From the human T2T-CHM13v2.0 reference genome, Homo sapiens: DNA of 64,000 nt. The notes below the pieces were generated by a model that saw nothing but the letters and a program-made list of their open reading frames with translations, was not told where the DNA came from and ran no database searches. The stretch's first letter is position 1, and every line of letters starts with the position of its first letter. Positions 21,326 through 40,718 of the stretch are shown here, piece by piece. The stretch lies in NCBI RefSeq assembly GCF_009914755.1, contig NC_060929.1; one strand, 5' to 3'. The position numbers were made by a program, and so were the translations under genes.

Positions 21326-22468
21326 TAATCATATGACCATCTCTATGGCTTTATAAAATTACTGGACAAAATCCATCATCCTCTTCTCATAAAAATAGTC
21401 AACAAAGTAGGAATAGAAGGAAATAATTTCAACATAACAAAGGCCACATATAAAATTTCAAAGCTAACATCACATTCAATGGTGAAAAGCTGAAAGATTC
21501 CTCTAAGATCAGGAACAAACCAAGTAAGCCCACTTTTGCTGCTTCTATTAAACATAGTTCTGAAAGTACTAATCAGAGTAATTGGGCAAGAAAAAAACAT
21601 AAAAACATCCAAATTGGAAAGAAAGGAGTAAAATTATCTCAATTCACAGATGGCATGACCTTATATGTAGACTCTACAATAAACATTTTAGAAATTAATA
21701 AATTCAGCAAAGTTGTAAGACACAAAATCAACATACAGAAATAAGTTGCATTTCTATCAATTACCAACAAATAATCCAAAAAGGAAATTGAGAAAATAAT
21801 CCCATTTACAATAGAATTAAACAGAATAAAATATTTAGAAATAAACTTAACCAAGGAGGTGAAAGAGACACCAAACTCTACAAAACATTGCTTAAAGAAA
21901 CTAAAGAAGACACAAATAAATGGAAAGGCTTTCCACATGAATGGATTGGAAGACTTAATATTGTGAAAATGTCCATAATACCAAAAATGATCTACAGATT
22001 CAATGTAATCCCTATCAAAATCACACTAGCATTTTTAACATAAATAGTAATATTAAAAATAGTAAAAATTTTTAATTCATATGGAGCCAGAAAAGAAGCT
22101 CGAATAGTCAAAATAACCTTCAAAAAGAACAAAATGAGAGATCTCACAATTTCTAATTTCAAAACATATGACGAATCTATGGTATTCAAACAGTATAGGA
22201 CTGGCATTAAAGCAGACATACAGACTAATGGAACAGAATATAGAGCCAGAAATAAAGTCACACATATGAGATCAAATGATCTTCAACAATGTTGCCAAGA
22301 CTACACAATGGGTAGGGAAAGTCTCTCCAAAAGGCAATGGAAAAACTTGATATCCACATGCAAAAGAAGGAAAAGATTTTTGTATCAACTCGAAATGGAT
22401 TGAGGACTTTAACAGAGGACCTAAAACTATAACACTCATACAAGCAAACAGAGAAAAGGCTGCATAAC

Positions 22469-22672
22469 TATATTAGTCAGGGTTCCCTAGAGGGACAGAT
22501 GTGTGTGTCTAATAGGATAGATGTGTGTGTGTGTCTGTGTGTGTGTATTTTAAGGGGAGTTTATTAAATATTAACTTACACAATCACAAGGTTCTCCAAT
22601 AGGCTGTCTGCAAGCTTGAGGAGAAAGGAGAGCCAGTCTGTCTCAAAACTGAAGAACTCGGAGTCTAATGTT
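22469..22672 (-). mobile_element. MLT2A (HERV-L) LTR, 3'-terminal ~200 bp only
   Basis: 'tatattagtcagggttccctagagggacaga...aataggatag...aaggggagtttatta...acaatcacaagg...aaaactgaagaactcggagtc' is the reverse complement of the MLT2A 3' end; minus-strand AATAAA at 22560-22565. Confidence 0.88.
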
Positions 22673-22897
22673 TCAAGACGGGTTGGGTGGGTACCCCACA
22701 CTGCCGCTGACGCCTTGCGCTCACTCCGCCATTCGCGTGCGTGGCTGAGAGACCCCCGGCCCCACTGCGTGACCCACCCATGTCGCACTGGGGACAGTTC
22801 GCCCCCCGCCTGTGAGCACGTTGGCCCTCACCCTCTTTGTGCCACCGTGGCTTTTGTGTTAGCCCCTAACTTGCTCAAGTGTTAGACTTCTTGGTCC
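22669..22897 (-). pseudogene. 28S rRNA fragment (3' end of D2 expansion segment plus adjacent core), circularly permuted
   Basis: Reverse complements match 28S landmarks ACCCACCCGACCCGTCTTGAAACA and CTGTCCCCAGTGCG (22669-22810), and GGACCAAGGAGTCTAACAC...CGTGGCGCAATGAAGGTGAAGGCC (22811-22897). Confidence 0.9.
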
Positions 22898-23998
22898 AGA
22901 AGTAAATAATTGAAGTTTGGGAACATCCGCCTAGATTTCAGAAGAAGTCCGGAAACACCTGGATGCCCAGGCAAAAGTTTGCTGCAGGGGCAGGGCCCTC
23001 ATGGAGAGCCACTGCTAGGGCAGTGCGGAAGGGAATGCAGGGCCAGAGCCCCCACACAGAGTCTCCACTGGGGCACTGCTTAGTGGAACTGCGAGGAGAG
23101 GGCCATCGTCTGCAGCACCCCAGAATGGTACATTCATTGAAACCTTGCACCATGCGCCTGAAAAAGCTGCAGACACTCAACGCCAGCCAGTGAAAGCAGC
23201 CAGAAGGGATTCTGTACCCTGCAAAGCCACAGGGGCAGAGCTGCCCAAGACCATGGGAACCCACCTTTTGCATCAGCCCGACCGGGATGTGAGACCTGGA
23301 GTCAAAGCAGATCATTGTGGAGCTTTAAAATTTGACTGCCCCGCTGGATTTTGGACTTGCATGGGTCCTATAACCCCTTTTTTTGGCCACTTTCTCCCAT
23401 TTGGAATGGCTTTATTTACCCAATACCTGTACCCCCACTGTATCTAGGATGTAATTAGCTTGCTTTTGATTTTACAGGCTCATAGGTGGAAGGACTTGCC
23501 ATGTCCCTTTGACATGGCAAAGATGAGACTTTGGACTGTGGACTTTGGGTTAATGCTGAAATGAGTTAAGACTTTGGGGGAAGGTTGGGAAGGCATGATT
23601 GGTTTTGAAATGTGAGGACATGAGAGTTGGAGGGGCCAGGGCCAGAATGGTATGGTTTGGCTGTGTCCCCACCCAAATCTCAACTTGGATTGTATCTCCC
23701 AGAATTCCCATGTGTTGTGGGAGGGACCCAGGAGGAGGTAATTGAATCATGAGGGCTGATCTTTCCCATGCTATTCTCGTGATAGTGAATAAGTCTCATG
23801 AGAGCTGATGCGTTTAGCAGGGGTTTCCCCTTTTGCTTCTTCATTTTTCTCTTGTGGCTGCCATGTAAGAAGTACCATTTGCCTCCCTCCATGATTCTGA
23901 GACCTCCCCAGCCATGTGGACTGTAAGTCCAATTACACCTCTTTTTGTTCCCAGTTTCGGTTATGTCTTTATCAACAGCATGAAAACAGACTAATACA
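22898..23998 (+). mobile_element. THE1A MaLR: 3' part of internal region plus complete 3' LTR (23648-23998)
   Basis: THE1-int 'gtttgggaacatccgcctagatttcag...'; LTR from 'tggtatggtttggctgtgtccccacccaaatctcaac' to 'ctttttgttcccagtttcgg...gactaataca'. Confidence 0.9.
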
Positions 23999-24444
23999 AT
24001 AACATTGGTCTTAGTAATGATTTCTTGGGCATCACACCAAAAGCACAGGCAACAAATGGGGAAATAGACAAGTGAGACTACATTAAATTGAAAAGCTTTT
24101 ACATAGCAAAAAGAAAAAGACAAGAAATCAACAAATGGAAAAGGCAACTTAGAGAGTGAGAAAATGTTTACAAAAAAACTATTAAAAATTTAATAGTATT
24201 CAATACATTCAAGGAACTCATATAACTGAATAGTAAAAAAAAAAAAAAAGTAAAAACAGAAAAGTACTTGAATAGACATTTCTCCAAAAAAAGGTTTAAA
24301 AAGTGCCCAAAATGTGTATGAAAAGGTGCTTAAGATAACTAATAATATAAGCAATACAAATCAAAACTACAATATATCACCATCTCATGCCTGTTAGAAT
24401 AGATATTATTTAAATTAAAAACAAAAGCAAAAACAAAAATAGAA

Positions 24445-24744
<300 letters not shown>

Positions 24745-25956
24745 CTAGAAATAAACATGTGTTGGCAAGGGTGTGGAGAAATTAGAACTCTTATGCAATG
24801 TTGATGGGAATATAAAATGGTTCAGGTGCTATGGAAATCAGTTTAGAGTTTCTTCCAAAAATTAAAAATAGAACTACCATGTGATACAGCAATTTCATTT
24901 TTGAATATTTATCTAAAATAATTAAAATTGGGATCTCAAAGGGATATTTGAACTTCCATCTTCATTGCAATGTTATTCTCAATACACAAGAGGTGGGAAC
25001 AATCTAAATGTTCATTGATGGATGAATGGATAAAGAAAATGTGGTATATAAACACAAACGAATATTACTCATCTATTAAAAAGAAGGAAATTCTTTTACA
25101 TACTACAACATAGAACAACCCTGAGGACACTGTGCTAAGTGAAATAAGTCATCGATAGATGGATAAATACTATATGATTCCATTTACATGGGGTATCTAA
25201 AATAGTTGAACTCATAGAAACAGAAAGTAGAATGGTGGTTTCTGGGTGCCGGGAAGAGGAGAGGTGCTGGGTATACAGTTTCAGTCATGCAAGATGGAAG
25301 AGTTTAAAGATTGTTTGTAGTTCATTTTATTTACAGTTTACAATACCATACTGTGCACTTAAAAGGTTGTTTTGAGGATAAATTTTATGTTGTATATTTT
25401 TGCCACAAATTTAAAAAATAAATACAAATTTGATTTTGGAACTTAAAAAAGAGAAAAGAAAATGTCTTTCTTAGAAAATACCTAGTAAAATATTTAGGAG
25501 TAAAGAGACATAATTTCGGTGACATGCTATCAAATGGTTCAACAATTAAATTAAATACCACTAATGTCTGTATGTGTGTGTGTGCACATGTGTGAAGAAA
25601 GAGATAATGATATAATAAGTGTGACAAAATTTTAATAATTAGAGAATTTAGGTGAAATATCTATGAGAGATAGTTGCATTACCTTTATAACTTTTCTGTG
25701 AGTTTTATTTATTTTTTCCAAACTAAGAAGTTAAATTCATGTTCTAAATACTGATATCTTGAGTCTACTTCTTGGTTTTGTCACTTAGGATGTGACATTG
25801 GGGAATTTATTTAAATTATTTAAACCTCAGATTTCTAATCTATAAAATAAAAGTAATATTGTACTGTCCTTTCAGTGTTGTGAGTAGTACATGAGACACT
25901 ATCAATAAATCTTTCATTGTATTGGGAATTAACAATCTCTCAAAAATACTAGCTGA

Positions 25957-35400: not shown

Positions 35401-37731
35401 TAATCTGACTATGTGCAATGTAGATTAGTAGATATTAAACATGCAAACCCTACCTGTCTTGTCTTTTCTCAACAGGATTCTCACTTCATATTGAAATATT
35501 TTTTGATCAGGTGTAATAATGGGGTTTGATTGGGTGTAGTTCAATCCCATTGTTGGTGACTAAATGTAGGAGATCTTCCAAATTTTCCTTAAAAGATTAT
35601 ATACTAACTGAAGAATCCACTTAAGGTTACAAATATGCAGCCCAAATACTCTCTGGTTGAATTACACCCTGAACTATATCTTACAAAGAAGTCAATGCTC
35701 TTTGACAAACAAATATTCATGACTCAATTTTGTGTTCTAAAACTCATCTAATCTGGAGGTCATTTCACTTTACTTCCAAAACCGACTTGTAACTGAATTA
35801 AGAGCATGTTCTCTTTCCTCCGCCCAGCCTGCACCCCCAGCCGAGTATATGTAAAGTAATGGTTATGAGTCAAATTATAAAGGAAAAAATACAGATAGGT
35901 AATAAATGTTCCAATGCTGCCTATGTAATTTATGAAATCAGAATTACAGGAAGTGTCACTGTATTAGTCCATTTTCATGCTGCCAATAAAGACATACCCA
36001 AGACTAGGTAATTTATAAAGAAAAAGTGGTGTAATGGACTCAGTTTCACATGCCCGGGGAGTGCTCATAATCATGGCAGAAGGTGAAAGGCACATCTCAC
36101 ATGGTGGCAGGCAAGCAGAGAATAAGAGCCAAGTGAAAGGGGTTTCCCATTGTAAAACCATGAGATCTCATGAGACCTCATGAGACTTATTCACTACCAC
36201 GAGAACAGTGTGGGGAAAACCACCCCCATGATTCAATTATCTTTCACCCAGTCCCTCCCACAACACAAGGGAATTATGGAAGCTACAATTCAAGAAGAGA
36301 TTTAGGTGGTGACACAGCCAAACCGTATCATTCCACCTCAGGCTCATCCCCAATCTCAAGTCCTCACATTTCCAAACCAATCATTCCTTCCCAACAGTCC
36401 CCCAAAGTCTTAACTCATTTCAGCATTAACCCAAAGCCCACAGTCCAAAGTCATATCTGAGACATGGCAAGTCCCTTCTGCCTATGAACCTGTAAAATCA
36501 AAAGCAAGTTAGTTACTTCCTAGATACAGCAGAAGTACATTGAATAAATACATGGCTCCAAATGGGAGAAATGGGCCAAAACAAAGAAGCTAAAGGCCTC
36601 ATGCAAGTCTGAAATCCAGCAGGGCAGTCAAATCTTAAAGCTCCAAAATAATCTCCTTTTACTCTATGTCTCATATACAGGTCACACTGATATGTTGTGG
36701 GAAATCAGGGACCCCAAATGGAGGGATCGGCTGGAGCTGCAGCAGAGGAACATAAATTGTGAAGATTTAATGGACTTTTATCAGTTCCCAAATAATACTT
36801 TTATAATTTCTTATGCTTCTCTTTACTTTAATCCCTTAATCCTGTTATCTTCATAAGCTGAAGATATATGCCACCTCAGGACCACTATGATAATTGTGTT
36901 AACTGTACAAATTGATTGCAAAACATGTGTGTTTGAACAATATGAAATCAGTGCACCTTGAAAAAGAACAGAATAACAGCGATTTTTAGGGAACAAGGGA
37001 AGACAACCATAAGGTCTGACTCCCTGAAGGGTTGGGCAAAAAGAGCCATATTTTTCTTCTTGCAGAGAGCCTGTAAAAGGATGTGCAAGTAGGAGAGATA
37101 TCACTACATTCTTTTCCTAGCAAGGAATATTAATATTAATACCCTGGGGAAGGAATGCATCCCTGGGGGGAGGTCTATAAATGGCATCTCTGGGAATGTC
37201 TGTTTTACGCAGTTGAGATAAGGACTGAGATACACCCTGGTCTCCTGCAGTACCCTCAGGCTTACTAGGGTGGAGAAAAACTCCACCCTGGTAAATTTGT
37301 GGTCAGACCGGTTCTCTGCTCTCGAACCCTGTTTTCTATTGTTTAAGATGTTTATCAAGACAATATGTGCACTGCTGAACATAGACCCTTATCAGTGGTT
37401 CTGCTTTTTCCCTTTGTCCTGTTCCCTCAGAAGCATGTGATCTTTGTTAAATCCTTATTAGCAGTTCTGCTTTTTGCCCTTTGAAGCATGTGATCTTTGT
37501 ACCTACTCCCTGTTCTTACAACCCCTCCCCTTTTGAAACCCTTAATGAAAACTTACTGGTCTGAGACTCAGGCGGGCATCATGGTCCCACCGATATGTGA
37601 TGTCACCCCTGGCTGCCCAGCTGTAAAATTCCTCTCTTTGTACTGTCTCTCTTTATTTCTCAGCCAGCCAACACTTATGGAAAATAGAAAGAACCTACAT
37701 TGAAATACTGGGGGCAGTTTCCCCCAATATC

Positions 37732-38714: not shown

Positions 38715-40718
38715 CCAACACTTATGGAAAATAGAAAGAACCTACATTGAAATATTGGGGCAGGTTCCCCCAAAACTGATACAAGAGGTGGGTTCCCATG
38801 ATCTTGGGCAGCTTTGCTCTTGTGGATTTGCAGGGTATAGCCTCCCTCCCAGCTGCTTTTATGGGCTGGTGTTGAGTGTCTGAGGCTTTTCCAGATACAC
38901 GGTGTAAGCAGTCAGTGTATCTACCATTCTGGGGCCTGGAGGATAGTGACTCTCTTCTCATGGTTCCACCAGGCAGTGCCCCAGTGGAGACTCTGTGTGC
39001 GGGCTTCAGCCCCACATTTCTCTTCTGGACTGCCCTAGTAGAAGGTCTCCATGAGGGCTGCATCTCTGCAGCAAACTTCTGCCTGGACATCCAGGGGTTT
39101 CCATACATCCTCTGAAATCTAGGCAGGGGTTCCCAAACCTCAGTTCTTGACTTCTGTTCAACTGAAGTCTCAATGCCACGTGGAAGCTGCCAAGGCTTGG
39201 GGTTTGCACTCTCTGATGCCACAGTCTGGGTTCTATTGGCCCCTTTTAGCCGTGACTGGAGTGGCTGGTAGGCTGCACACAGCAGGAGGGCCCTGGGCCT
39301 CAGCCACAAAAACACTTTTTCTTCTGAGGCCTCTGGGTCTGTGATGGGAGAAGCTGCCACAAAGGTCTCTGACATGCCCTGGAGACATTTCCCCCATTAT
39401 CTTGGTGATTAACACTTGGCTCCTTGTTACTTATGCAAATTTCTGCAGCCAGCTTGAATTTCTCCTCAGAAAATGGGTTCTTCTTTTCTATGACATCATC
39501 AGGCTGCAAGTTTTCTGAACTTTTATGCTATATCCCTTTTAAAACTGAATGCTTTTGGCAGCACCCAAGTCACCTCTTGAACGCTTTGCTGCTTGGAAAT
39601 TTCTTTTTCCAGATGGCCTAATTCATCTCTCTCAAGTTCAAAGTTCCACAAATCTCTAGGGCAGGAGCAAAGTGCTGCCAGTCTCTTTGCTAAAACATGG
39701 CATGAGTCACCTTTACTCCAGTTCCCAAAAGTTCTTCATCTACATCTGAGACAACCTCAGCCTTGATTTCATTGTCCATATCATTATCAGCATTTTGGTC
39801 AAAGCCATTCAATAAGTCTCTAGGAAGCTCCAAACTTTCCCACATTTTCCTGTCTTCTTCTGAGCCCTCCAAACTCTTCCAACCTCTGCCTGTTACCCAG
39901 TTCAAACGTTGTTTCCACATGCCCGGGTATCTTTATAGAAGCACCCCACTCTCCCAGTACCAATTTACTTGTTAGTCAGTTTTCATGCTGCTGATAAAGA
40001 CATACCTGAGACTGGGTAATTTATAAAGAAAACAGATTTAATGGACTCACAGTTCCATGTGGTTGTTGGGGGCCTCACAATCATGGTAAAAAGCAAAAGG
40101 TACATCTTACACAGTGGCAGAGAAGCAGATAATGACAGCCAAGTGAAAGGAGTTTCCCCTTATAAAGCCATCAGATCGTGTGAGACTTATTCAAGAGAAC
40201 AGTAAGGGAGAAACCGCCCCCCTGATTCAATTGTCTCCCATGGAGTCCCTCCTACAACATGTGGGAATTACGGGAGCTACAATTCAAGATGAGATTCGGG
40301 TGGGGACACAGTCAAACCATATTAGTCACCTTCTGTGGATAATGAACTTCTCAGAAGACCAACCAGAACCTAAGCACTTTGAGTTAGAATTGTAGCATCC
40401 CATTAATTTATTTACTTGTGTTCAAGTCCACTATCTTGTAACTGGAGAAAGGAAGAATAAAACGTCACAAACACATGTAGAGAAAAAGTTATCCAAATAA
40501 TCTTACAGTGGAGTGGTTTTAAAAAGAAAAATTTGCTTATTTTTTTTTCCAAATTAAGCTTACTTACTTCTTATTACTTATAATCATTGCTATTCCTAGA
40601 CCACAATTGTTACTAATAAAGGACTCAAAGGAATAACAAGTAAATAAGACAATATCTTTACCCTCAAGAAGCTCACAGACTTAGTAGAAGAAATAGCTGC
40701 ATTTAAAAAGAGTTTCCC

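What the first reader, a model, noticed from the sequence alone, without database searches (positions are those of the whole stretch)
22464..24003. One TSD-bounded chimeric integrant with two outward-facing LTR 3' ends from different families (HERV-L MLT2A and THE1A), bridged by 28S rRNA
Seen: the host L1 reads ...ctgc ATAAC [insert] ATAAC attggtc..., with ATAAC at 22464-22468 and 23999-24003. Removing the insert and one copy restores continuous L1 ORF2. The left end 'tatattagtc' is the reverse complement of an MLT2A LTR 3' end; the right end 'gactaataca' is a THE1A LTR 3' end. Neither element has its other terminus. Known: ERVL and MaLR insertions make 5-bp TSDs, and MaLRs lack pol and are thought to use ERVL machinery. 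Inference: the + strand is a nascent cDNA. It began as HERV-L minus strong-stop DNA (~200 nt, plausibly U5-R), switched onto 28S rRNA via TGTT microhomology (22669-22672), then onto a THE1A minus-strand cDNA and copied it to its U5 end. That gives a linear DNA with two U5 att sites that integrase inserted. This would be direct fossil evidence that HERV-L, THE1A and rRNA shared one particle.
Basis: partly seen in the sequence, partly recalled or inferred. Interest (0 to 1): 0.92.

Follow-up and report, generated by a model that had tools for sequence, protein, structure and literature searches.

The report
Two-family retroviral chimera, one insertion
A single 1.5-kb insertion in an old L1 repeat joins the tail ends of two different ancient retroviral elements head to head through a scrambled piece of ribosomal RNA, as if their DNA copies were fused while being made and then pasted in together.

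Summary
ATAAC at 22464-22468 and 23999-24003 is a true 5-bp target-site duplication: 8 related L1 copies carry that 5-mer once, exactly where the two flanks overlap. The 1530-nt insert has a native LTR U5 terminus at both outer ends. On the left is 205 nt of a HERV-L-type (MLT2A-like) LTR, inverted. On the right is a 5'-truncated THE1-type element with 751 nt of internal region and a complete 351-nt 3' LTR.

The 28S bridge is two adjacent 28S pieces (about nt 1161-1324 and 1326-1420) in swapped order. The HERV-L breakpoint lies roughly 30-70 nt inside R, not at the start site.

Junction overlaps are TGTTT, a C-rich stretch and 1 nt.

Best reading (about 0.5): two minus-strand cDNAs, each begun at its own primer site, were fused 3'-to-3' by reverse-transcriptase jumps across a 28S fragment, and an ERV-L-type integrase inserted the two-U5-ended DNA. 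Main rival (about 0.25): cDNA fragments were end-joined before integration.

Sharing of one particle is plausible but not shown. Subfamily names and orthologous loci could not be tested with these tools.

The parts
22000..22463 (+). Left flank: old L1 ORF2 sequence (host of the insertion)
   Evidence: Aligns at 67-75% to 19 L1-like relatives. Relative L087 encodes a frame matching human LINE-1 ORF2p residues 751-843, E=4e-20.
22464..22468 (.). Left copy of the 5-bp target-site duplication ATAAC
   Evidence: present once in the related L1 copies.
22469..22668 (-). HERV-L-type (MLT2A-like) LTR, 3' terminal ~200 nt (U5 plus most of R), inverted. The native U5 terminus is at 22469. A (TG)n tract lies at 22500-22547. 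The reverse complement of AATAAA lies at 22560-22565.
   Evidence: 75-86% identity to 29 genomic copies, with 1869 first-look candidates. In 4 of 29 copies the terminus abuts a PBS.
22669..22673 (.). Junction 1: TGTTT, shared by the LTR family and antisense 28S. The next 9 nt are partly alike (about 10 of 14 in all).
22674..22802 (-). 28S rRNA piece A, antisense on the + strand (rDNA locus L002 1654 down to ~1504, about 28S nt 1161-1324 including the junction bases)
   Evidence: 22669-22810 against L002 1659-1496, 72% over 164 columns. LSU rRNA lies on L002 + from 336; 10 of 24 mismatches are CpG transitions.
22803..22810 (.). Junction 2: C-rich overlap (CCCCCGCC) where piece A (28S ~1161 end) meets piece B (28S ~1420 end)
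   Evidence: the two alignments overlap by 8 nt.
22811..22896 (-). 28S rRNA piece B, antisense (L002 ~1747 down to 1662, about 28S nt 1326-1420). In 28S it lies directly 3' of piece A, but here it comes after A.
   Evidence: 22803-22897 against L002 1755-1661, 77% over 95 columns, no gaps.
22897..22897 (.). Junction 3: a single C shared by 28S piece B and the THE1 internal region
22898..23647 (+). THE1-type internal region, 3' ~750 nt, ending in the polypurine tract (about 23630-23647). The 5' LTR and the first ~828 nt of the internal region are absent.
   Evidence: 29 full-length copies align from 22897 on, 79-86%. The break corresponds to L041 position 1501, where the internal region starts at 673.
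23648..23998 (+). Complete THE1-type 3' LTR (351 nt), TGGTATGG...GACTAATACA, with the native U5 terminus at 23998
23999..24003 (.). Right copy of the target-site duplication ATAAC
24004..24500 (+). Right flank: continuation of the same L1 ORF2 sequence

Best explanation
This is one integration event, probably in an early simian ancestor, of a linear chimeric DNA whose two ends were both U5 ends.

Proposed sequence of events:
1. A HERV-L minus-strand cDNA, primed at its own PBS, copied U5 and about two thirds of R.
2. It left the HERV-L RNA early and continued on 28S rRNA, entering at a TGTTT match.
3. It copied 28S down to about nt 1161, then jumped to about nt 1420 of the same, already cut or partly consumed, 28S fragment. 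It copied down to the point where it had first entered.
4. It jumped onto the growing 3' end of a THE1 minus-strand DNA that had so far copied the THE1 3' LTR and about 750 nt of internal region.
5. Each strand was then extended on the other, giving a duplex with the HERV-L U5 at one end and the THE1 U5 at the other.
6. The two U5 termini are nearly identical (GACTAATAYA). An ERV-L-type integrase trimmed and inserted them in concert, making the family's usual 5-bp duplication.

Shown here: the TSD, the native termini, the composition, the 28S permutation and the junction overlaps.
Inferred: integrase action, the reverse-transcriptase jumps, their order, and co-residence in one particle.
For: - The TSD is exactly 5 bp, which is the usual length for both families. 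For THE1, one search listed 17 full-length copies. One (L054) is void because its flank runs off the locus. Of the other 16, 8 have perfect 5-bp TSDs and 3 have one mismatch. For the MLT2-type LTR, 4 of 8 solo copies are perfect and 1 has one mismatch, by my reading. Mouse MuERV-L is also reported to make 5-bp TSDs (PMC4516963, passages).
- Both outer ends stop exactly at the LTR terminal ...A(C/T)A. In proviral copies 5-6 further nt separate that end from the PBS. The ends are therefore trimmed as an integrase would trim them, not left as raw cDNA ends.
- Both ends are U5 ends, which is where every minus strand begins.
- The left piece carries the AATAAA signal and about 130 nt upstream of it but no U3 promoter. 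TATAAA lies 93-96 nt beyond the break in 17 of 28 copies.
- The 28S is antisense on the same strand on which the HERV-L piece is antisense.
- The two 28S pieces abut in 28S within 1 nt (L002 1659 and 1661) but are swapped. That is expected if one fragment was copied from an internal entry point to its 5' end and then from its 3' end back to the entry point.
- Junction overlaps are 5 nt, a few C/G and 1 nt, with no filler.
- U3 starts (TGTGATGGTT and TGATATGGTT), U5 ends and PBS are alike in the two families.
- Both families are DUX4-bound, and MaLRs are thought to depend on ERVL proteins (PMC3836709, passages).
Against: - Nothing here separates reverse-transcriptase jumps from end joining of broken cDNAs. 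Overlaps of 0-5 nt fit both.
- The orientation of the 28S does not test the model, because the opposite orientation could be assigned to the THE1 minus strand.
- The last jump needs a DNA template and has only 1 nt of overlap.
- The left terminal dinucleotide now reads TA rather than CA on the transferred strand. Three of 29 family copies share this, so it is either a later transition or a source variant.
- The 28S pieces differ from modern rDNA by about 16-18% even outside CpG transitions, more than I would expect. This region is an expansion segment, though, and the measure is crude.
- This is a single locus. No orthologues and no second example of the same architecture were examined.
Confidence: 0.5

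Rival explanations
1. The integration step is the same (two U5 ends, integrase, 5-bp TSD), but the chimera was made by end joining rather than by reverse-transcriptase jumps. Broken double-stranded cDNA fragments of HERV-L and THE1 were ligated, with a linearised small circular or broken 28S-derived DNA as filler. This could have happened before integration or after each U5 end had been joined to one side of the target.
For: - Junction overlaps of 5, a few and 1 nt are typical of end joining.
- Mouse zygotes join several MuERV-L or MaLR cDNA pieces with 1-5 bp microhomologies at breaks (PMC4516963, passages).
- A circular 260-bp DNA opened at one point would give exactly the observed permutation, with 1 nt lost.
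Against: - It needs a double-stranded HERV-L U5-R fragment without U3, which normal reverse transcription does not produce except by breakage.
- It needs two separate viral DNAs brought together by one integrase complex.
- It does not explain why the HERV-L piece is close to strong-stop length.
Confidence: 0.25
2. Two or more separate events. A HERV-L (inverted) and a THE1 integrated independently at the very same 5 bp. A later deletion then removed everything between 200 nt into the HERV-L LTR and 828 nt into the THE1 internal region, and 28S sequence was captured as filler.
For: Deletions with captured filler occur. The architecture ATAAC-[HERV-L]-ATAAC-[THE1]-ATAAC would leave the same outer ends. 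No call supports it directly.
Against: - It requires a second integration into the identical 5-bp staggered cut, followed by a deletion that removes the middle ATAAC.
- No remnant of U3, of the 5' LTR or of a third ATAAC is present.
Confidence: 0.05
3. Integrase was not involved. A chromosomal break with a 5-nt stagger was repaired by capture of concatenated reverse-transcribed fragments (RT-product-mediated break repair).
For: Capture of ERVL and MaLR cDNA at breaks is documented in mouse zygotes, with multi-fragment inserts (PMC4516963, passages).
Against: - In that study the captured pieces were truncated at both ends and lacked LTR ends and regular TSDs.
- Here both ends are exact LTR termini, trimmed of the 5-6 nt that separate them from the PBS.
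- The duplication is exactly the family's 5 bp.
Confidence: 0.05

Closest known systems
Ordinary THE1 (MaLR) and HERV-L proviruses or solo LTRs
   Same: The LTR termini, the 5-bp TSD, the PPT before the 3' LTR and the family sequences are the same.
   Different: There is no 5' LTR, no PBS and no pair of identical direct LTRs. The two ends belong to different families and face outwards as two U5 ends.
Complex LTR-retrotransposon insertions made by abnormal template switching (Sabot and Schulman 2007, PMC1950507; abstract read)
   Same: Two parent elements are fused during reverse transcription and inserted as one unit.
   Different: Those are same-orientation fusions sharing an LTR. This one is an inverted, 3'-to-3' fusion of two families with a host rRNA bridge. 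The chr10 locus noted in passing is closer to their type.
RT-product-mediated double-strand-break repair capturing MuERV-L and MaLR cDNA (Ono et al. 2015, PMC4516963; passages read)
   Same: ERVL and MaLR cDNA pieces are concatenated with 1-5 nt microhomologies in germline-competent cells.
   Different: Those inserts lack LTR termini and regular TSDs. This one has exact U5 termini and a 5-bp TSD.
L1-driven chimeric retrocopies such as U6-L1 (recalled; PMC4476161 seen only in the listing)
   Same: A reverse transcriptase jumps from one template onto an abundant small or ribosomal RNA, leaving bipartite copies.
   Different: Those have poly(A) tails, longer TSDs, L1 endonuclease sites and parts in the same orientation. 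None of that is seen here.
Concerted integration of two U5 ends in test-tube integrase assays (recalled, no call)
   Same: An integrase complex can use two U5 ends and still make the normal-length duplication.
   Different: That is an artificial substrate. This would be a natural genomic example, with ends from two families.

Membership tests
Integrase-made LTR-element insertion (ERV-L / MaLR type) | Target-site duplication of the family's length (5 bp) | tested here: met
   Searches show the 5-bp TSD here. Family norm: 11 of 16 THE1 copies within one mismatch and 5 of 8 MLT2-type solo LTRs.
Integrase-made LTR-element insertion (ERV-L / MaLR type) | Insert ends exactly at native LTR termini | tested here: met
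   Left end TATATTAGTC and right end GACTAATACA coincide with the family termini. The left terminal dinucleotide is TA rather than CA on the transferred strand.
Integrase-made LTR-element insertion (ERV-L / MaLR type) | Two like LTRs in direct orientation (U3 end at one side, U5 end at the other) with PBS and PPT inside | tested here: not met
   There is one complete LTR and one inverted 205-nt LTR piece of another family. Both are U5 ends. There is no PBS, and a PPT only for the THE1 LTR.
HERV-L LTR (MLT2A group) | Sequence membership and an LTR of ~444 bp with TATA, an AG-rich start region and AATAAA. The U5 end abuts a PBS of the HERV-L type. | tested here: met
   75-86% identity to 29 copies. 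LTR about 455 nt. TATAAA in 18 of 28 copies. PBS TGGTACCAGGAGTGG beside 4 of 29 copies. The length and start-site figures come from PMC8559712. That the PBS matches tRNA-Leu is recalled, not tested.
HERV-L LTR (MLT2A group) | Assignment to subfamily MLT2A1 or MLT2A2 by RepeatMasker/Dfam; pol of ERV-L type in linked proviruses | not testable with these tools
   No repeat library was available. One linked locus (L089) showed no pol domain in Pfam.
THE1 (MaLR) | Sequence membership: ~2.3-kb element with ~350-nt LTRs TGATATGG...CTAATACA, a non-pol internal region and a 5-bp TSD | tested here: met
   29 full-length relatives, 79-86% identity over 1.1 kb.
THE1 (MaLR) | Subfamily A rather than B, C or D | not testable with these tools
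No consensus library was available.
28S rRNA-derived sequence | Alignment to the LSU rRNA gene of the same genome | tested here: met
   (E about 1e-22 and 1e-16 in the pairwise search). One search places the matched stretch inside Rfam LSU_rRNA_eukarya on L002. Rfam itself did not call the window copy.
RT-product-mediated break repair (no integrase) | Inserts truncated at both ends, no LTR termini, no regular TSD, microhomology to the target | tested here: not met
   compared with the passages of PMC4516963.

The most novel reading that the evidence does not exclude
This locus is a physical fossil of one ERV-L capsid that held HERV-L RNA, THE1 RNA and 28S rRNA together. Two minus-strand cDNAs were fused tail to tail by template jumps, and the ERV-L integrase accepted two U5 ends from different families. 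That would be direct evidence that HERV-L enzymes mobilised the protein-less MaLR elements in trans. It would also show that U5/U5 'inverted dimer' DNA is a natural integration substrate.
Probability: 0.4. Interest if true: 0.75.

Novelty: new variant of a known kind. Interest (0 to 1): 0.62.

Why it matters
MaLR elements such as THE1 number in the hundreds of thousands in the human genome yet encode no polymerase or integrase. That they borrowed ERV-L enzymes is an old inference from sequence likeness (PMC3836709, passages).

A single TSD-bounded insert with a HERV-L U5 end on one side and a THE1 U5 end on the other ties the two families to one integration reaction. This is stronger than likeness alone.

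The permuted rRNA bridge also records, base by base, how a reverse transcriptase behaved on a host RNA. It gives concrete search criteria for finding more such fossils: inverted LTR ends, a 5-bp TSD and a host-RNA bridge.

Tried and rejected
- Rfam on 21500-25000 at E<=1 did not detect the 28S pieces; it found only Alu/SRP-like hits downstream. The 28S origin was shown by alignment to the genome's own rDNA instead.
- Pfam on frames of the window's L1 flanks and of 10 L1 relatives found nothing significant. A PDB sequence search with a window frame found nothing, but a relative's frame hit LINE-1 ORF2p.
- Pfam on 49 frames of the chr10 locus L089 found no retroviral pol, only L1 ORF1 domains. 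That locus proved to be a HERV-L-LTR/THE1 hybrid.
- I considered that the right-hand ATAAC might come from the THE1 post-LTR spacer, because permissive alignments of 5' LTRs ran on to 24009. I rejected this. THE1 copies read GTAAATTGGTACC there, whereas L1 relatives read ATAAC/ATGAC attggtcttag, and the window matches the L1 relatives.
- I checked two LTR fragments that start near the start site (L014, L022) for a matching 5-mer after a second terminus. Nothing convincing turned up.
- Literature searches found no description of such an insert: THE1A/MLT2A/template switching, strong-stop/rRNA/chimeric, LTR template switching/inverted, and two U5 ends/U5-U5/inverted provirus/head-to-head. Only the held open-access library was searched.
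- No genome-wide scan for further examples and no cross-species comparison was possible.
Full report
**1. What is in the sequence**

The window (T2T chr5:53.32-53.38 Mb) reads ...ggctgc ATAAC | TATATTAGTCAGGG ... CAGACTAATACA | ATAAC attggtc... The two ATAAC copies are at 22464-22468 and 23999-24003, and the insert between them is 1530 nt.

I fetched 19 relatives of the left flank from the same genome and aligned both flanks to them. In 8 relatives both alignments reach the junction. In all 8 the end of the left flank and the start of the right flank overlap by exactly 5 nt of the intact copy. In the other 11, one alignment stops short of the junction. At this site the relatives read cttc-AT[G/A]AC-attggtcttagcaatgatttcttgga, with the 5-mer present once. 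The duplication is therefore a true 5-bp target-site duplication, and removing the insert plus one copy restores the host repeat.

The host is L1 ORF2. Pfam saw nothing in the decayed flanks or in relatives. However, a 196-aa frame of relative L087 matches human LINE-1 ORF2p residues 751-843 at E=4e-20. By extrapolation this places the site near residue 980.

**2. The left part**

Window 22469-22668 has 1869 first-look candidates in the genome. The 29 fetched copies align at 75-86%. Their LTR is about 455 nt, TGTGATGGTTAAT...GACTAATACA. Of 8 solo copies with both ends found, 4 have perfect 5-bp TSDs and 1 has one mismatch, by my reading.

The window's left end coincides with the family terminus: TGTATTAGTC in most copies and TATATTAGTC in 3. 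In 4 of 29 copies this terminus is followed, in LTR sense, by GATTT-TGGTACCAGGAGTGG, a primer-binding site. Three of those 4 share more than 0.5 kb of internal sequence beyond it. At least five copies have internal sequence at the opposite LTR end. The terminus at 22469 is therefore the U5 end, and the piece lies inverted on the + strand.

In LTR sense the piece contains AATAAA (reverse complement at 22560-22565). U5 is thus about 70 nt, and the remaining ~130 nt is R.

The name MLT2A and the tRNA-Leu match of the PBS are recalled, not tested. The LTR length agrees with the 444 bp given for MLT2A1 in PMC8559712 (passages).

**3. Where the left part breaks**

The family continues ...GGAGTCTGATGTTTGAGGGCAGG. 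The window reads ...GGAGTCTAATGTTTCAAGACGGG, and antisense 28S reads ...GGTCCGTGTTTCAAGACGGG. The crossover therefore lies in TGTTT (22669-22673), and about 10 of the 14 nt around it are alike.

An exact TATAAA is present in 18 of 28 anchored copies. In 17 of these it starts 93-96 nt upstream of the break, followed by an AG-rich stretch. PMC8559712 maps MLT2A start sites to an AG-rich region at positions 205-215 of 444, downstream of a TATA box.

Both lines of evidence put the break roughly 30-70 nt inside R, not at the U3/R boundary. The piece is an unfinished minus-strand strong-stop DNA rather than a complete one.

**4. The rRNA bridge**

The genome's chr13 rDNA matches the middle of the insert. 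Rfam places LSU rRNA on the + strand of locus L002 from position 336.

A sensitive pairwise search gives two hits, both antisense on the window's + strand:
- Window 22669-22810 against L002 1659 down to 1496, 72% identity.
- Window 22803-22897 against L002 1755 down to 1661, 77% identity with no gaps.

In 28S numbering these are about nt 1161-1324 and 1326-1420. The two stretches are immediate neighbours in 28S with one base between them, but in the insert the upstream stretch comes first. The whole is a circular permutation of one 260-nt segment, opened at the point where the HERV-L piece enters and the THE1 piece leaves.

If the two pieces were independent samples of a roughly 5-kb rRNA, adjacency within a few nt would be expected about once in a thousand (my estimate). 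About 45% of the mismatches to modern rDNA are CpG transitions, as expected for an old unmethylation-protected copy.

**5. The right part**

From 22897 to 23998 the insert aligns to 29 full-length THE1-type copies at 79-86%. These are 2.25-2.3 kb long, with LTRs reading TGATATGG...CTAATACA.

One search listed 17 copies with both ends. One (L054) is void because its flank runs off the locus. Of the other 16, 8 have perfect 5-bp TSDs, 3 have one mismatch and 5 have two or three mismatches.

The window keeps the last ~750 nt of the internal region, the polypurine tract and a complete 351-nt 3' LTR (23648-23998). The 5' LTR and the first ~828 nt of the internal region are missing (L041 coordinates).

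The 28S/THE1 junction shares one base (C at 22897). The THE1 sequence just upstream of the break resembles the 28S end only weakly. THE1 5' LTRs are followed by GTAAAT-TGGTACCAGTAGAGTGG, a PBS close to the HERV-L one.

No other piece of THE1-like, MLT2-like or rDNA sequence that could supply the missing parts lies in the 64-kb window. The only other MaLR, at 35.9-40.3 kb, has both of its own LTRs.

**6. What made it**

Three features point to an integrase acting on both ends in one concerted reaction:
- Both outer ends are exact LTR termini.
- Both lack the 5-6 nt that separate the terminus from the PBS in proviral copies.
- The duplication is the family-typical 5 bp.

Both ends are U5 ends, and they are nearly the same sequence (GACTAATATA and GACTAATACA).

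Every retroviral minus strand starts at the PBS and so has U5 at its 5' end. The simplest way to obtain a duplex with U5 at both ends is to join two minus strands by their 3' ends. Read along the + strand, the order is:
1. HERV-L U5 then R, antisense.
2. 28S, antisense, in two legs.
3. THE1, sense, running to its U5 end.

That is the path of a HERV-L minus strand that left its RNA early, copied a 28S fragment, and then used a THE1 minus-strand DNA as template. The THE1 strand would be extended back over it.

I hold this reading at about 0.5.

**7. Rivals**

- End joining of broken cDNAs, with a linearised 260-bp 28S-derived circle as filler, followed by the same integration. This gives the same product, and overlaps of 0-5 nt fit it equally well. 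Multi-piece MuERV-L/MaLR cDNA concatenation with 1-5 bp microhomology is documented in mouse zygotes (PMC4516963). About 0.25.
- Break repair without integrase. This is unlikely, because those captured pieces lack LTR termini and regular TSDs. About 0.05.
- Two integrations into the identical 5 bp followed by a deletion with filler. This needs a very improbable coincidence and leaves no trace. About 0.05.

The orientation of the 28S does not discriminate between the models. Nor do the data show that the molecules shared one capsid rather than one cell.

**8. Comparison with what is known, and novelty**

Fusion of two LTR elements by abnormal template switching, inserted as one unit, is described in cereals (PMC1950507, abstract). 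Recombination during reverse transcription is well reviewed (PMC6894440, passages). Those cases are same-orientation mosaics.

Four searches of the held open-access library found no description of a TSD-bounded insert with two U5 ends from different families, or of an rRNA-bridged ERV chimera.

I rate this a new variant of a known kind. It is a well-preserved and unusual fossil that ties HERV-L and THE1 to one integration reaction. It is still a single locus, and its decisive tests (orthologues, a genome-wide scan) remain to be run.

Noticed in passing
L019 and L089 (G000 C10:134445386-134449022): This is a second HERV-L/THE1 hybrid. The 3' part of a HERV-L-type internal region and an MLT2-type LTR are followed directly by a PBS whose first part is of the HERV-L type. 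After that come the THE1 internal region and a THE1 3' LTR. The MLT2-type LTR keeps about 410 of 455 nt, and a ~350-nt deletion spans its start. The crossover lies in or next to the PBS. It could be a template-switch product sharing an LTR, or it could be post-integration recombination. Its TSD could not be checked.
   Followed up: partly
L014 (G000 C3:149086205-149089395) and L022 (G000 C1:74017365-74020540): Two of the 29 MLT2-type copies are LTR fragments that keep only the last ~243 and ~256 nt up to the U5 end. They therefore start near the mapped transcription start, at about R-U5 length. No second terminus with a matching 5-mer was found within the loci.
   Followed up: partly
window 35935-36691 and 38776-40327, minus strand: Another MaLR-type element with both LTRs, 72-79% identical to a full-length THE1-type copy. 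It is split by about 2 kb of other sequence.
   Followed up: no
window 24446-24723: Alu-like sequence (Metazoa_SRP hits below the gathering score, plus mir-1268 and mir-3135 look-alikes) inside the L1, downstream of the insert.
   Followed up: no
window 22500-22547: A (TG)n tract inside the U5 part of the HERV-L-type piece. The same position holds TA- or TG-rich runs of varying length in the other copies. Lengths measured from the U5 end therefore vary by some 20-30 nt between copies.
   Followed up: no
window 23999-24009: The L1 sequence just after the insert (ATAACATTGGT) resembles by chance the spacer and PBS start that follow THE1 5' LTRs (GTAAATTGGT). As a result, permissive alignments run past the LTR end.
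   Followed up: yes
L089 727-1170, minus strand: L1 ORF1 domains (Transposase_22 and its dsRBD-like domain) lie beside the chr10 hybrid element.
   Followed up: no
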